Source of the DNA: Styela clava
Lineage: Eukaryota
NCBI RefSeq assembly: GCF_964204865.1
Contig: NC_135259.1
Span: 10,850,001-10,914,000, forward strand
Reading direction: 5' to 3'
DNA: 64,000 nt
Part shown: in pieces, positions 12,001 to 42,000 of the stretch
Numbering within the stretch: position 1 is the stretch's first letter
How the letters are laid out: each line of letters opens with the position of its first letter
Program-made: the position numbers

Positions 12001-15000
12001 ACAAGTAATATCTTAGAAAAGACAAAAAGGGCTCACGAATAGTTGTTACTAAAAGAAAATAAATATAATTTGTAATTTTGCTCCAGGGTCAACTCCGCTA
12101 AATAGCTAATATGGCAATGGATTATAAAATGTTAATTATATTTCCATTGTTCTTTTCTGTGGTTTGGGGAGGAAGAGGCGCACCATCACAGGAAATAACA
12201 TATGACGGATCTAAAGATTTGTCCTCTGGTATAAATGTTATGTGGAAAGTAGAAGAAAAGAGTATAGTTTTAAAGGTAAAATGCCGCAAGGGCGAAATGT
12301 TTTCAAATATTTCTATTTTTAATTGCAATTGCGTTGATGAGTTGAGGTAAATTTAAGCCTTCACTCTGACTGTATTAAGTTAGGCATACAGCGAACCAAA
12401 AAGTGTCTAATAATTCCAAATATAGTAGATAAGGCATTTGCTTTTCTCTGATTGAATGTGTGTAAACACAACAAAAAAGTAAAGGCACTGTAATGAATTT
12501 TTTAGAACTGATACACGATTAATAGTGGTTAGAAATCACACCAGAGTTATCCCTGTTTTCATACTTTTATGTCTCACTTTCACATTTTGCTAAAATTATA
12601 GACAATCATACTATTCCGTACAACCCTTCAAATTGGAAATTTCCAAATATGTTAAAATGCTGTTTCTTAAGAGCTACAAATCTCCAGAAAAATCTGTTTA
12701 CAGTATGTATATGTTAATTCCAACATTTTCTTAAAGAGATGGTGTTTTGATTGTTAGATAAATTACTTCAATTTTCTTTACGGGATGTGGTAAATTCGAT
12801 TTTCAATTTATTGAAAGAAGTTTTTTATTTATTTTTTCCTCTCACGACCACTTTTTTACAACAGTTGAAATACAGAGCAACAGGATGGGTTGGCATTGGA
12901 TTTTCAAAATCAAAACATCCACAGAGTATGGCTGATTCTGATATCACAATAGGCTGGGTTACTATGGGCAAAGCGTCTGTGTGGGTAAGACAAAATAAAA
13001 ATTATTTTTGCATGATAATCCCATATAATAATAGCCTTGAAGTCACATAATCGACGATAAAGACAAATAGGAAATGCAAAACTTGCTACAAAATACACGA
13101 GAACTTTGAACAGCAAGTTATTAATTTTTTGACAACTTCGATACTACGTTAATCGACAATAATGCGACAAATACACACAGTGAACAACACAAACTCTTTT
13201 TATAAACCTAGAAATATCCACTTACAGGTATTTATGTGTGTGTGATGTTGCGTGTGCAAATAGAATGAGATTTTGACAACAGTTTTTGGATAAATGAAAC
13301 ATATTACAAAAGCTGAGCCTATTTTGACATTTAATATAATTTCAACTAAAATATTTAATCAGGACGCTTACGCCAAGACAAACGGAGTTCCAGATGTTGA
13401 TAAAAAATCAGAAGTGGAATTGATTAGTGGAAAGGAAGAATCTGGTTTCACTACAATTGTTTTCAGGAGACCAATCATTGCAATGAATGATGATGACGTC
13501 ACAATTCATGTGGGTTGCAAAACGTTAATACAGTCATAAAAAAACAATGGCGAATAAACATTGTGATATGACTCACTTTGATTGGTCAAAGTCATAAATA
13601 TTTTATTTAAATACTCGCAAATATGTAATTTAAAATTAAAATATTTACAGAAAGGTGAAATTGGAATTCTTTGGGCCTATGGAAGATCAGATGTTACAGG
13701 AGGAACTTTGAGCGTTGTAGATTATCATGCGAGAAGAGGTAAAAATCAAGTTATCTATCATAATCCACTTCATCGAATAAAGAATTAATTTTAATTGAAT
13801 ACCATAGTTTTGTATTGCGTTACCCATGATTTATGTCCTTGCAGTCCAAGCGATTGTTTATTTTTGCAATATACAATATTTTTTGAGACTTATAAAAATT
13901 TTAGGAACCATTCAAGGAAAATTTCTCAGTGTTGGCACATTAAAACCTCTCGTCAGTTCATTTTTTGGCTCTTTATTTTATCATCAAAAAGTATTAAACA
14001 CAGTGGTAAAGTTAATAAAGTTACCATCACTCCTACTGCACATGGGCTACTACAGTCAATAAAGTAATACAGTACTCCATAAAACATTCTTGTGATTTTT
14101 ACTAGTAAAAGGATTATACTCTCAAGGTATTTCGTGTGAAGACGAGAAACTAAAATCAAAAGTATCATTTCAGGTTATACAACTCTAACATTAATCCCCA
14201 CAGAAGAAATCGCTAGTGAACCAAGTCTTCCAGGTAAACTATGCTAGAAATTTTATTTGATTGCTTTCAACAGTTTTTGGTAATAGATCCCAATAGACTT
14301 ACCTTAAAGGCATTTATAAACTCCAAAGTTGGAAAAGCCCAATCGCCGTGTTATAACAGTAGTGGATATATATGAACGAATACTAACTATTGCATAAAAT
14401 AACAACAACAGTACAATTATTTATTGCTAGACCCAGCTAAACCAGAAAGTCCAAAAGATGTTGAAGATCATGATGACGCCGATGATGATGACGACAAACA
14501 AGCTCATGAACATGATGATAAAGATTTGAATCATTTCATTTATCTGGATGCAGACAAGAAACTTTTCCTTCGATGGGGAGTCAAAGGTCAAGAAATAACT
14601 TTCAAGGTACGGAACATGCTTTGTTTTCAACGAAGTTTTATCTGTAATAGTTCTCTTTGTAGTTGTTTGTGAACTTAGTATATTTCAAAAACATATCTAT
14701 ACATTTCTAAGCATGTATAACTTTTCTAATATGTAAACTTCATCAAACCTACAAACTGACTGAACTTCATTGAGATTTCAACACTCTGAATGACATAAAC
14801 GACATATAATTTTTACTAATTCGCTATTGTTATGGAAATGTTATTATTAAGAGCGCCTGTGGCGCAACACTAGTTGAAATGCAAAAATCATTTTATTGTC
14901 ATTTTCAGTTGAAAGGAGAAACTCTGGGATGGATGGGAATAGGATTATCGCCCGGACATGGGATGACAAATTCAGACCTAATGATTGTTGGAGTTAACAG

Positions 15001-39000: not shown

Positions 39001-42000
39001 AGAGTTTACTTTGAACTCTAAAGTGTAATCGTAAACATTTGATATTTGAAATTTTGTCACAATATTTCATAATAGACAAAATCATTAAAGTTGTAAAAAC
39101 TGTATTAAGCATTTATAATGATTTTATGCAACCTTGTAAAGCGATTTAACATGTCTTATAACGTGAGCTAGGTAAAGTTGGTTTGCAAAGATGACACAGC
39201 AACAGCAATAAGATTGCAAAGCATATGATAAGGATAATACTAAAAACATTCATTTTACATTCCCAGGTGTGGAAACGGGAACGCCAGAACTACCAGAAGG
39301 TAAATAATTCTAGTGAATACAAGGTGTCTGAAATGTTGACTGTTTTCCATTTGTCCCATAATTATCACACTTGCCCCAATTGTACGAATCTCACCTCATA
39401 TAAATACTATAGCCGTCTGACAAAGTATTCCAAGTGTAACAAATGTGATAAATAGAACAGACATGGGACACGTGGTACCTGAAATTATTGATAAACTGGA
39501 GAAAATATTGTTTCATGCGATTCCACCCAACACAAATCACAAACATTAAAATATCACATATAAATTACTTTTCTATGTAGGATTCATGTACGTTCGAGGA
39601 TACCAAAAACTTGATGAAGCCGGAGAAGTGGTTCTTCAATGGGGTTCTGCTTATTATTCGGAAGCATTGATGTATATACAGGTACAGCGATAGTATTCTT
39701 GATATGTGTATATGTTACGAAACAGGAAAACTGGTGTTGAACTTTCGGTTGTGAAATGATCAGACCGCGTTTCACTTGTTTATTTAACCGTCTCACAACA
39801 TTAATACAACAATAAGAGGCTTGAGCAGAATATATATCTAATTCATTTGTTTGTAACACTTTTGCCGCGATTTCATGAATAATGATTAGGCTGTAAGCAG
39901 TAATATGAAACGTTTCTATTTATACCGGATGTGTGTACTTGACAACGAACTGAAAAAATCCTGATTTATCGTGTATCCAAAAATAAATATCTCAAAGTTC
40001 TTATAGGTTTTGTATAAGTGGATGTATTTGAAGTATATATGCTGGAGTACGTTTCATACTTACTTTTATAGACAATATTACGATATATACGCAATATTTT
40101 TAACATTTTAAAGTACTTTACTATTTACTTTGTAGATTTCCGCCCCAACAACAGGGTGGGTTGGATTTGGACTATCACCTGGCGATTCTATGAAGGATTC
40201 TGATTTAGCTGTGGCAGGAATAAAAGATGGAACCTCGTACATTTTTGTGAGTTTGAAGACGTTTTATAATTTTTTTTTCTCGAAGATATAGGGCTACTCT
40301 AAGACTTAGTTTTATGTTATACTATCAACTTCCTTGTGCAAAATGTGCATTCATTGTTCTTCTTTCTTATAACTTTTTTGTTCAGATTTTTCTGATTGAA
40401 TTACTAAAAGCATAATATTGGATGATTTAATGTATAAGTCCGAAAACTGGTTATGCGCGCCGTTTATTTCGAGTTTTTTAATAATATTAAATTGAATATG
40501 GATTTTTTTTAAGGACTTATATGCTACAAAAAATACTTTGCCAATGGTTGATGCAAAACAAGATATCACGCTAATTCAAGCCGTTGAAGATGGGCCAAGA
40601 ACCATCGTTATGCTATTGAAAAAATACAAAAGCGAGGACACAGAAAATGACATTAACATCGTGGTACGAATATCGTTTATTTTTCATTTTACTCATTTCA
40701 ACGATTTATTGAACAAATTCGTTACTATACGTTATTATTCGGTGAACAACCGAGGGGCTGCAAACTACGTTGCGTTTAAGTTTTTGCTAGAATAAAAAAA
40801 ATAATAATAAAAAAGGGTTCATCTTTATAGGAATACAAAAGTTTTAATTTATAAATATTGATAGTTTTTGTATCAAACACACTAGGTAGGAAAAATGAAT
40901 GTACTTTGGGCTTATGGACAAACAGATGTCGATGGAACGCTGACTGGAATGAATTATCACGGACGAAACAGAGGTATGTGACTTTAATGCACATACGCGG
41001 TACAGAACCAACAACGAAAATGATCATAACTCTAAAATTTTGTTTTAAAATTTTGTTGTAACATTTACGTAAGCCATAATTCATCGACTTTCTCATAATA
41101 TTAAAGATGACAAAAAACATTATTTTATGCAAAACAACAAAATGTACTTTTAGTAACAACGTTAACCCATCGTGCATATAGTTGTTGTGAATATCAAAAA
41201 GTGTATAAATAATTGTTCCATATTAAGGGCACGCTGAAGTGGAATTTATACCGAGTGATCCTAGCCTTATTCCAAGTAAGTTCAATTTTTACTGCTTTGT
41301 TCGTTGTCTAATATTTCAGAGCCGTTTTTTTCGACCAATGCAATATTTATGATTTAGCTTCATGACCATTACTACATAAGTGCAGTTGCTAACGAGGAAA
41401 TATTTTAATAAATTTTGAAGGCACGGTAGTATTCTGCGTATAAATGAAAACTCTTAGTAATGTTATATAATGAACGTTTCAAATGCCAATTTTAAACTTT
41501 GTATATTGATGAATTAAAATTAAAACCAAATCGGTGGTGATTAATTTTATTTGATCCGTATAAATATATATTTTTTCAAAGTGGATGGACATTCACCCGG
41601 AAGTCCGAAGTCACCAAAATTAGGAACTGGAACAGACAGTCCCGACTCTATAAAATCGCCAAAGACCCTAGGTGTGACTGGAATGTCACCACCAAGCCAG
41701 TCAGGACCTGGTATAGCAAAATCTCCAATTAGTCCGGATAGTCCAGATACTGGTACGTCTCATACTCCTGTGGGTCCAAATAACATTAGATCGCCGATGA
41801 GTCCTAATACTGGCAAGTCTCCACAAAGTCCGGAAAGTTCAAAGAAACCTCCTCAGATAAGCAGACCGGTTCGACGTAAAAGAATTTTCCAGGGTGGCGC
41901 TACGGATATTGACAAATTGTTTGATGACGATAAAATGTATAAACAGGCAGTTTTAAATGAGGCTCATAAAGTGAATCTCAAATGGGCTTATAATAAGGAC

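What the first reader, a model, noticed from the sequence alone, without database searches (positions are those of the whole stretch)
14431..41275. Domain number is set by 0, 2 or 1 copies of a phase-1-symmetric 12-exon cassette
Seen: A = D1-linker-D4, C = D1-[cassette]-linker-D4, B = D1-[cassette]x2-linker-D4. The cassette (His/Asp tract, D2, micro-exons, D3) is 1137, 1134 and 1137 nt of coding sequence and is bounded by phase-1 introns on both sides, so it can be gained or lost without frameshift. Inference: an accordion locus changing by unequal crossover, and whole-cassette skipping could also produce 6-, 4- and 2-domain isoforms from gene B alone.
Basis: partly seen in the sequence, partly recalled or inferred. 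Interest (0 to 1): 0.75.

Follow-up and report, generated by a model that had tools for sequence, protein, structure and literature searches.

The report
Two-domain exon cassette sets DOMON number
Three neighbouring sea-squirt genes for secreted DOMON-repeat proteins differ by zero, one or two copies of a 12-exon, two-domain block that can be gained or lost in frame, which is a clear but textbook case of domain-number change by DNA duplication and deletion.

Summary
The window matches Styela clava (tunicate) models, not human, and has no N. On the + strand lie three paralogous genes for secreted multi-DOMON proteins: A (2 domains, 834 aa), B (6, 1232 aa) and C (4, 861 aa). They differ by 0, 2 and 1 copies of a 12-exon cassette of 1137, 1134 and 1137 nt. 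All splice sites are AG/GT, no exon holds a stop, and the introns on both sides are phase 1. Phase-1 symmetry is not special to the cassette: 16 of B's 34 introns are phase 1 and every DOMON module is 1-1. DNA-level duplication is supported. The intron between B's cassettes is a chimera of the post- and pre-cassette introns. The copies differ by dS 0.20 under purifying selection. Another S. clava database protein carries three cassettes, the middle one a B2/B1 hybrid. That could be real copy-number variation or an assembly mis-join. A most likely lost the cassette. Cassette-skipping isoforms remain untested. The mechanism is the classical 1-1 module rule plus unequal crossover, so this is a new example of a known kind.

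The parts
4491..11042 (+). Gene A: two-DOMON secreted protein (D1, long Ser/Pro/Lys-rich linker, D4), 11 exons, 834 aa, no cassette. Exons: 4491-4652, 5084-5203, 5423-5569, 6203-6290, 6563-6622, 7017-8506, 8779-8889, 9823-9963, 10256-10346, 10552-10584, 10981-11042.
   Evidence: Searches give the exon tables; all internal sites are AG/GT and the model is in frame. Database protein P0012 (736 aa, 2 DOMON) has the same exon order.
12111..14233 (+). Gene B, 5' part: signal-peptide-like start plus DOMON D1 in 4 exons and a 60-nt tail exon. Exons: 12111-12275, 12865-12984, 13363-13509, 13651-13738, 14174-14233. The donor after 14233 is phase 1.
   Evidence: All five exon peptides match P0002 at 100%.
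14431..20799 (+). Cassette B1: 12 exons, 1137 nt of coding sequence. E1-E5 carry the His/Asp tract and DOMON D2, E6-E7 are micro-exons, and E8-E12 carry DOMON D3 and its tail.
   Evidence: One search gives coordinates, AG/GT sites, phases and the absence of stops. One search shows all 12 exon peptides identical to P0002.
20800..21107 (+). Junction intron between the two cassettes of B (308 nt, phase 1). It is chimeric, and the duplication breakpoint lies at about 20980-21010.
   Evidence: nt 1-180 match post-B2 intron nt 1-185 at 79% (E 5e-40). Nt 211-300 match pre-B1 intron nt 91-173 at 69% (E 3e-5).
21108..26018 (+). Cassette B2: 12 exons, 1134 nt. E1 starts 27 nt further in than in B1 and C because the ancestral acceptor is deleted. 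The His/Asp tract is 24 nt longer.
   Evidence: Versus B1, dS is 0.20 and dN/dS is 0.21.
26382..28993 (+). Gene B, 3' part: Ser/Pro-rich linker plus DOMON D4, two tail exons and the stop codon. Exons: 26382-26794, 26937-27047, 27756-27896, 28442-28529, 28752-28784, 28932-28993.
   Evidence: P0001 ends with the same exons: 37/37, 47/47, 29/29, 10/10 and 17/19 residues.
30792..32037 (+). Relic of a second A-like gene (A') between B and C. 30792-31179 matches A 6231-6674 (end of D1d, the intron, and a D1 tail exon with a 5-nt deletion). 31989-32037 matches A's D4 tail exon.
   Evidence: 67.6% over 444 nt and 81.6% over 49 nt, collinear with 32248-33484, which matches the A-B intergenic DNA.
33566..36204 (+). 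Gene C, 5' part: own ATG and signal-peptide-like exon, DOMON D1 and tail exon. Exons: 33566-33730, 34375-34494, 35191-35337, 35643-35730, 36145-36204.
36403..41275 (+). Cassette C: 12 exons, 1137 nt.
   Evidence: dS is 0.43 versus B1 and 0.39 versus B2.
41582..43845 (+). Gene C, 3' part: linker, DOMON D4, tails and the stop codon. Exons: 41582-42015, 42139-42249, 42613-42753, 43313-43400, 43661-43693, 43784-43845.
   Evidence: The exon peptides match the C-terminal part of P0002 at 100%.

Best explanation
This is a tandem family of Styela clava genes for secreted proteins made only of DOMON domains plus low-complexity spacers.

Each DOMON is encoded by four exons plus a short tail exon. The module is bounded by phase-1 introns (internal phases 0-0-0-1), so any whole number of modules can be added or removed in frame.

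Most likely history:
1. The ancestor already had D1, D2, D3 and D4.
2. After an old gene duplication, the A lineage lost the D2...D3 block and expanded its linker.
3. A two-gene unit (A-like gene plus cassette gene) was then duplicated in tandem, giving A, B, A' (now a relic) and C.
4. In B, the 12-exon D2-D3 cassette was duplicated head to tail, with breakpoints inside the two flanking phase-1 introns.
5. Both copies have since been kept under purifying selection.
6. Unequal exchange between the B cassettes may still be producing alleles with other copy numbers, as a three-cassette version exists in the databases.

Shown: the anatomy, the phases, the chimeric junction intron, the divergence and selection values, and the tree topology.

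Inferred: the unequal-crossover mechanism itself, the loss in A, and the present-day polymorphism.

The proteins probably act outside the cell as multivalent ligand- or heme/metal-binding scaffolds whose valency scales with cassette number. That function is inference only.
For: Anatomy and phases. Intron phases are A 6 phase-0 and 4 phase-1, B 18 and 16, C 12 and 10. There are no phase-2 introns and no stop at any joint.

DOMON identity: 6 of 10 exon ORFs hit PF03351 at E<=1.1e-3. P0001 has 8 DOMON stretches, P0002 has 6 and P0012 has 2.

Tandem duplication in B:
- The copies are collinear.
- The junction intron is chimeric.
- B_c1 and B_c2 are sisters for D2 (94%) and D3 (99%), with C outside.

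B's two copies are not an artefact:
- B1 and B2 are 92.7% identical in exons (1036/1118).
- They are 74.5% identical in alignable intron (2582/3466), with 2101 gap columns.
- Reported heterozygosity is about 1.72% (PMC7540406, passage seen).
- dS is 0.20 and dN/dS is 0.21 over 353 codons.

The cassette was present in the B/C ancestor: dS between the C cassette and the B cassettes is 0.39-0.43, against 0.32 (D1) and 0.47 (D4) for the B-C flanks.

Loss in A: in an ML tree of 39 domains, unnamed relative P0008 (order D1, D2, x, x, D3, D4) branches outside A+B for D1 (97/93; A+B 100/99). It also branches outside A+B+C for D4 (100/99; 100/97). It has members of the D2 clade (100/96) and the D3 clade (99/98).

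Two-gene duplication unit: the A' relic and collinear intergenic matches.

Ongoing change: P0001 has three distinct cassettes, and the middle one is a B2(E1-E2)/B1(E3-E12) hybrid. P0012 shows gene A's linker shorter by 98 aa, which equals one 294-nt repeat unit.
Against: - I had no RNA evidence, so the exon models rest on conservation, splice signals and agreement with predicted database proteins.
- The only model that matches the window exactly (P0002) is a B-to-C chimera. It jumps from B2 E3 to C E4, so the public annotation does not treat B and C as cleanly separate.
- P0001's third cassette could come from two haplotypes joined in tandem in another assembly. c2 differs from c1 in E3-E12 about as much as alleles do.
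- P0001's last cassette has a long E1 and differs from B2 at 2 of the 3 diagnostic residues that separate B1 and B2 in E2... more precisely it carries the B2 state at 2 of 3 and a third state at 1. A single simple exchange between two window-like alleles therefore does not explain everything.
- The longest perfect B1/B2 match is only 79 nt, a modest substrate for homologous exchange.
- The acceptor of B2 E1 has a poor pyrimidine tract.
- The loss-in-A inference depends on one unnamed relative of unknown origin. A's own intron shows no trace of a deletion joint (best E 0.018, 16-nt matches).
- No relative carrying this domain series was found in another named tunicate.
Confidence: 0.8

Rival explanations
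1. The two cassettes in B are an assembly artefact, such as two haplotypes or a repeat placed in tandem, and the real gene has one cassette.
For: Tandem repeats of 5-6 kb are places where assemblies do go wrong. I could not inspect reads.
Against: - Exon identity is 92.7% and intron identity 74.5%, with 2101 gap columns. The spans differ (6369 vs 4911 nt).
- dS is 0.20, against about 1.72% heterozygosity.
- B2 has its own acceptor deletion and a longer His/Asp tract.
- An independent record (P0001) also contains B1-type and B2-type cassettes in one open frame.
Confidence: 0.03
2. The three-cassette protein P0001 reflects a mis-join of two haplotypes in another assembly, not a real allele. Under this reading cassette number in B is fixed at two, and the accordion is historical only.
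For: - The composition B1 - [B2 E1-E2 | B1 E3-E12] - B2 is exactly what an overlap of two haplotype contigs would give.
- c2 and c1 differ in E3-E12 at about the allelic level.
- c2 and c3 differ in E1 in the way alleles might (short versus long form).
- The published assembly was built from noisy long reads of a species with 1.72% heterozygosity (passages only).
Against: - The same composition is the expected product of a real unequal exchange.
- c2 carries 4 private changes at 288 sites where B1 and B2 agree, so it is a third distinct copy.
- Gene A's linker also differs by one whole repeat unit between records, so repeat-number differences recur at this locus.
Confidence: 0.4
3. Domain number is mainly varied at the RNA level. 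Whole-cassette skipping in B gives 6-, 4- and 2-domain isoforms.
For: - All joints between phase-1 donors and later phase-1 acceptors are in frame and free of stops (136 of 136 in B).
- Database models differ in small in-frame choices: E6 is absent from P0001's last cassette, there is an extended E6 in its first, and a 24-nt longer E4 in B1.
Against: - Neither of the two B-containing models found skips a cassette.
- Separate genes A and C already supply the 2- and 4-domain forms.
Confidence: 0.12
4. A's two-domain form is ancestral, and the D2-D3 cassette was inserted into the B/C ancestor by exon shuffling from another multi-DOMON gene.
For: - D2 and D3 are only 27-37% identical to D1 and D4, so they did not arise recently from them.
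- Other multi-DOMON genes exist that could act as donors.
- A's intron shows no deletion scar.
Against: P0008 branches outside A+B(+C) for both D1 and D4, yet has D2- and D3-clade domains between them in the same order. Insertion would need the same block to enter twice, or P0008 to be misplaced.
Confidence: 0.2

Closest known systems
Class 1-1 (phase-1 symmetric) modules of metazoan extracellular proteins, the classical exon-shuffling rule
   Same: Domain-sized exon sets are bounded by phase-1 introns in a secreted modular protein, and modules are duplicated or deleted in frame. PMC7259759 (passages seen) summarises that metazoan exon shuffling is mainly mediated by phase-1 introns and that modular domains are mainly encoded by 1-1 exons.
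   Different: Here a module is not one exon but 4+1 exons with internal phase-0 introns. The unit that moves is a pair of different modules plus spacers (12 exons).
Human complement receptor 1 long homologous repeats and LPA kringle IV-2 repeats (recalled from general knowledge, not from any call)
   Same: A multi-exon, in-frame, domain-encoding block is repeated in tandem within a gene. Copy number changes through unequal crossover, so alleles encode proteins with different domain numbers.
   Different: Those are well-documented human polymorphisms with known population frequencies. Here copy-number difference within the species rests on one database protein. The domains are DOMON, not SCR or kringle, and the copies are old (dS 0.20).
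DOMON domains of dopamine beta-hydroxylase and MOXD1-type copper monooxygenases
   Same: - Dopamine beta-hydroxylase is the only solved structure found by sequence (4ZEL, E 6e-5, aligned to D3).
- S. clava's own MOXD1-like protein P0004 aligns at 32-36% identity over two adjacent DOMONs.
   Different: - No Cu2 monooxygenase domain is present in A, B or C, judged from the database models P0012, P0001 and P0002. P0004 has both such domains.
- The Met conserved in all 12 window DOMONs aligns with Leu in human DBH.
Unnamed multi-DOMON array proteins in the protein library (P0006 with 12 DOMON, P0008 with 6, P0010 with 6, P0011 with 3, P0007 with 20 plus cytochrome b5 and FAD domains, P0019 with 6 plus ferric reductase)
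   Same: These are proteins made of tandem DOMON domains with widely varying numbers. P0008 has the same D1...D2...D3...D4 order.
   Different: - They are 25-57% identical per domain.
- None of those checked has the His/Asp tract; P0006 and P0011 have Asp/Glu tracts.
- Their gene structure and origin are unknown, and some are fused to redox modules that are absent here.

Membership tests
DOMON domain proteins (Pfam PF03351) | Match to the DOMON profile at or above the gathering score of 32.7 bits. | tested here: met
   P0001 scores 642.7 bits with 8 stretches and P0002 476.1 bits with 6. P0012, the gene A product, scores 168.8 bits with 2. Single exons score 19.6-34.9 bits; 6 of 10 hit and 2 of 10 exceed the cut-off.
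Class 1-1 exon-shuffling module | Both flanking introns are phase 1 and the unit length is a multiple of 3. | tested here: met
   Cassettes are 1137, 1134 and 1137 nt, phase 1 on entry and exit. There is no stop at any joint.
Class 1-1 exon-shuffling module | Module boundaries coincide with protein domain boundaries. | tested here: met
   Exon sets a-b-c-d-tail align across all 12 domains. The domain envelopes found lie within these sets.
Intragenic tandem duplication by unequal crossover | Head-to-tail collinear copies with a junction made of the end of one copy's flank joined to the start of the other's. | tested here: met
   Searches show collinearity. One search shows the chimeric junction intron.
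Intragenic tandem duplication by unequal crossover | Alleles with different copy numbers that contain hybrid copies. | tested here: inconclusive
   P0001 has three cassettes with a B2/B1 hybrid in the middle. A haplotype mis-join would look the same, and the DNA of that record was not available.
Alternatively spliced cassette (exon-skipping isoforms) | Transcripts that join the exons on either side of the cassette. | not testable with these tools
   I had no RNA data. The two B-containing database models keep their cassettes. Cluster members could not be listed.
Copper type II ascorbate-dependent monooxygenases (DBH/MOXD1) | Cu2_monooxygen and Cu2_monoox_C catalytic domains after the DOMON. 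| tested here: not met
   Neither domain is in P0001 or P0002 or in P0012. Both are present in P0004. B and C end 2 exons after D4 at conserved stop codons.
Heme-b binding DOMON (cellobiose dehydrogenase cytochrome type) | Match to PF16010 and conserved axial Met and His ligands. | tested here: inconclusive
   PF16010 scores 146.4 bits with 3 stretches in P0001. One Met in exon b and one His in exon d are present in 12 of 12 domains. That these are the ligand positions is recalled, not tested, and no structure was predicted.

The most novel reading that the evidence does not exclude
Cassette number in gene B is a segregating polymorphism in Styela clava (two versus three copies, perhaps more). 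It would be generated by unequal exchange between B2 and B1 in the E2-E3 interval. One species would then carry a natural series of 2-, 4-, 6- and 8-DOMON secreted proteins, each cassette adding a His/Asp tract and two DOMONs. Binding valency for heme, metal or sugar would vary between individuals of an invasive animal.
Probability: 0.4. Interest if true: 0.5.

Novelty: new member of a known kind. Interest (0 to 1): 0.35.

Why it matters
This is a clean, fully resolved example of how modular extracellular proteins change domain number. One 40-kb stretch shows a loss, a retention and a duplication of the same multi-exon block, together with the duplication scar. There is also possible within-species copy-number variation.

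It flags a public gene model that fuses two neighbouring paralogues.

It gives testable material for the poorly understood DOMON domain: paralogues with 2, 4, 6 and perhaps 8 copies.

It does not reveal a new mechanism.

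Tried and rejected
- Human origin was rejected. All 28 exon peptides compared are 100% identical to P0002, which NCBI names as Styela clava. GC is about 33%.
- Assembly gaps: there are none.
- Search for extra or decayed cassette exons elsewhere in the window: tblastn with 56 exon peptides gave 474 HSPs. Of these, 32 lie outside the modelled exons, and only the A' relic was credible (30791-30850, E 0.001, and 32006-32035). No cassette remnant lies in A's introns.
- Deletion scar in A's D1-tail/linker intron: only 8-26-nt matches, best E 0.018. 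I take this as noise.
- Origin of the cassette from the MOXD1-like gene: P0004's two DOMONs align about equally with every adjacent pair (31.5-35.6%). It is not encoded in the window.
- Orthologues in named species: word-indexed searches gave only the S. clava proteins, a Pinctada protein, an archaeal MAG protein and P0004 (4 of 8000 candidates; 3 of 2167). This is weak evidence of absence.
- Exhaustive profile search with the E3 exon alignment: 26 proteins at E<=1e-3. I scanned 11 of the 26 with Pfam and used 7 proteins in the tree. The other hits, many under 110 aa, were not examined.
- Bacterial promoter and terminator scan of the junction intron: not meaningful for a eukaryote, and ignored.
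- Rfam and tRNA scans of the window: nothing found.
- Literature:
  - 'Styela clava' + 'DOMON' gave 1 paper, a review on antimicrobial peptides. I saw the listing only.
  - 'exon shuffling' + 'phase 1-1' + 'symmetrical' gave 0 papers.
  - 'DOMON domains', 'tandem', 'MOXD1' gave 63 papers holding 2 of the 3 terms. 10 were listed and none was relevant by title or abstract.
  - The S. clava genome paper has 0 occurrences of 'DOMON' in its main text. Its supplements were not seen and might list this family.
  - I therefore found no description of this locus in those searches.
- Not done: structure prediction, fold search, complex prediction and the ESM Atlas. Joined domains of the window were not to be submitted, and the database proteins of B and C exceed 1200 aa.
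- The joined spliced models of A, B and C were never built or searched. Searches were exon by exon or used database proteins as returned.

Full report
WHAT THE WINDOW IS. The window has no N and a GC content of 31-40%. Every exon peptide of my models that I compared is 100% identical to database protein P0002, which NCBI names 'uncharacterized protein LOC120337231 isoform X2 [Styela clava]'. The window is therefore tunicate DNA, not human, and the rule about human contigs did not apply. The joined models were never built or searched, and full-length comparisons used database proteins as returned.

THE OBSERVATION.
- Direct-repeat families with three members, spaced about 5.2-6.7 kb and 15.3-15.7 kb apart, and a self-blastn show three collinear copies of a 5-6.4 kb unit.
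- A three-way alignment shows 12 conserved blocks per copy.
- The exon table gives 1137 nt (B1, 14431-20799), 1134 nt (B2, 21108-26018) and 1137 nt (C, 36403-41275).
- All 36 exons have AG/GT sites and no in-frame stop. Each cassette is phase 1 on entry and exit.
- The 3-nt difference in B2 has two causes. The ancestral acceptor region is deleted, which moves the acceptor 27 nt into the old exon. The His/Asp tract has a 24-nt expansion.
- Full models give A with 11 exons and 834 aa, B with 35 exons and 1232 aa, and C with 23 exons and 861 aa.
- Each gene starts with a hydrophobic, signal-peptide-like exon and ends at a conserved stop two exons after the last DOMON.
- Exon ORFs hit Pfam DOMON (6 of 10). 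P0001, P0002 and P0012 have 8, 6 and 2 DOMON stretches.

WHAT THE PHASE SYMMETRY MEANS.
- Every DOMON in these genes is encoded by four exons plus a short tail exon, with intron phases 1|0|0|0|1|1.
- The three micro-exons (36, 39 and 33 nt) are each 1-1.
- B has 18 phase-0 and 16 phase-1 introns and no phase-2 intron.
- All 136 combinations of a phase-1 donor with a later phase-1 acceptor are stop-free at the joint.
- The cassette's symmetry is therefore the family's general 1-1 module design, the classical pattern for metazoan extracellular modular proteins (PMC7259759, passages seen). It is not a special adaptation of this block.

DUPLICATION IN B.
- The 308-nt intron between the cassettes is a chimera. 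Its first 180 nt match the start of the intron that follows B2 (79%). Its nt 211-300 match the latter part of the intron that precedes B1 (69%). This is the scar of a tandem duplication with breakpoints in the two flanking introns, at about 20980-21010.
- B1 and B2 are sisters in per-exon distance trees (94% for D2 and 99% for D3).
- They are not recent or artefactual copies. Exon identity is 92.7% and alignable-intron identity is 74.5%, with 2101 gap columns. The spans are 6369 and 4911 nt.
- dS is 0.20 and dN/dS is 0.21 over 353 codons. Reported heterozygosity for the species is about 1.72% (PMC7540406, passages seen).
- The C cassette is as far from the B cassettes (dS 0.39-0.43) as C's flanks are from B's (0.32 and 0.47). 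The B/C ancestor therefore already had one cassette.

DEEPER HISTORY.
- D1, D2, D3 and D4 are four old domain types, 27-37% identical to one another. Each is monophyletic at 100%, and within a type A lies outside B+C.
- A profile search with the E3 exon alignment found 26 relatives at E<=1e-3. Among the 11 I scanned, DOMON counts were 2, 2, 3, 4, 4, 6, 6, 6, 7, 12 and 20. Some are fused to cytochrome b5/FAD or ferric-reductase modules.
- One relative, P0008, has the order D1, D2, two divergent domains, D3, D4.
- In an ML tree of 39 domains, P0008 branches outside A+B for D1 and outside A+B+C for D4. It also has members of the D2 and D3 clades, and all these nodes are starred.
- The simplest reading is that the ancestor had D2 and D3 and that A lost them. 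This rests on one unnamed protein, and A's intron keeps no scar.
- Between B and C lies a relic of a second A-like gene (30792-31179 and 31989-32037). It is collinear with intergenic matches. The array therefore arose by duplication of a two-gene unit.

IS IT STILL CHANGING?
- P0001 (1613 aa, same LOC name, a few per cent different from the window) is a B-only model with three cassettes.
- I compared it at the 30 residues that distinguish B1 from B2:
  - The first cassette is B1-type (27 B1, 2 B2, 1 other).
  - The last cassette is B2-type (2 B1, 24 B2, 3 other).
  - The middle cassette is B2-type in E1-E2 (6 of 6) and B1-type in E3-E12 (22 of 24). It also has 4 private changes at 288 sites where B1 and B2 agree.
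- That is the product expected from an unequal exchange between B2 and B1 in the E2-E3 interval.
- It is also what a tandem mis-join of two haplotypes would give, and I could not see the DNA.
- The long E1 of P0001's last cassette shows that the parental copies were not identical to the window's.
- Separately, P0012 (gene A's product from another allele or assembly) is 98 aa shorter in the linker. That equals one unit of the 294-nt tandem repeat at 7525-8174.
- The His/Asp tract also differs in length among copies.

SPLICING CLAIMS.
- Nothing here tests whole-cassette skipping.
- The database models differ only in small in-frame choices: an acceptor 24 nt upstream for E4 of B1, an extended E6, and one missing E6.
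- P0002 is a chimera. It runs from B's D1 through B1 and E1-E3 of B2, then continues with C's E4 to C's stop.
- C has its own start exon, B has its own stop, and P0001 ends at that stop. I therefore read B and C as separate genes and P0002 as a probable annotation artefact. A real read-through transcript is not excluded.

FUNCTION.
- The proteins have no catalytic or membrane domain.
- The nearest solved structure by sequence is the DOMON of human dopamine beta-hydroxylase (4ZEL, E 6e-5).
- The nearest named paralogue is S. clava's MOXD1-like protein, at 32-36% identity.
- D2 also matches the cytochrome domain of cellobiose dehydrogenase.
- One Met and one His are conserved in 12 of 12 domains. 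The Met aligns with Leu in human DBH.
- Related arrays fused to redox modules hint at heme or electron-transfer roles.
- My best guess is an extracellular multivalent binder whose valency scales with cassette number. This is inference.

VERDICT. The DNA-level accordion is well supported as history and possible as present-day variation. The splicing idea is untested. The mechanism is textbook, so this is a new member of a known kind, of moderate interest.

Noticed in passing
window 22071 > 37966 (joint in database protein P0002): The NCBI-derived model that matches the window exactly fuses gene B (D1, cassette 1, E1-E3 of cassette 2) to gene C (E4 of its cassette to the stop). It skips B's 3' end, the A' relic and C's 5' exons. 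This is probably an annotation artefact between paralogues.
   Followed up: partly
window 7525-8174 (+), inside gene A's linker exon 7017-8506: A 294-nt tandem repeat (2.2 copies, 94% matches) encodes a Ser/Pro/Thr/Lys-rich spacer. Database protein P0012 for the same gene is 98 aa (one unit) shorter, so repeat number differs between records.
   Followed up: partly
window 30792-31179 and 31989-32037 (+): A decayed fragment of a second A-like gene lies between B and C. It keeps the end of exon D1d, a D1 tail exon with a 5-nt deletion, and a D4 tail exon. It is collinear with 32248-33484, which matches the A-B intergenic DNA.
   Followed up: yes
window 16675 vs 16699 (+): There are two in-frame acceptors for exon E4 of cassette B1. 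Both database models use the upstream one, adding 8 residues. Cassette C lacks that AG. B2 has it, but the models use the downstream site.
   Followed up: partly
window 14460-14500, 21120-21190, 36430-36480 (+): The His/Asp tract at the start of each cassette is a GAT/GAC/CAT-rich run. Its length differs among B1, B2, C and the three cassettes of P0001.
   Followed up: no
window 473-1327 (-): An uninterrupted 284-codon frame contains a collagen triple-helix repeat and a C-type lectin domain, so it is collectin-like (Pfam E 9e-10 and 1.5e-14).
   Followed up: partly
window 46804-47832 (-): An intronless 342-codon frame has six or seven hydrophobic segments of about 20-35 residues. It has no Pfam match at E<=0.01. 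It may be a lineage-specific multi-pass membrane protein.
   Followed up: partly
window 52800-59500 and 61600-64000 (+): Two tandem copies, offset about 9.2 kb and 80-96% identical in blocks, of a gene whose exons match the AMP-binding enzyme family. The second copy runs off the window.
   Followed up: partly
window 15230-16130 and 18100-18480 (+), with matches at 31474-31828: B1 introns carry about 0.9-kb and 0.4-kb insertions that are absent from B2 and C. Parts of the neighbouring sequence (18268-18385 and 18891-18980) recur in the B-C intergenic region, which suggests dispersed repeats.
   Followed up: no
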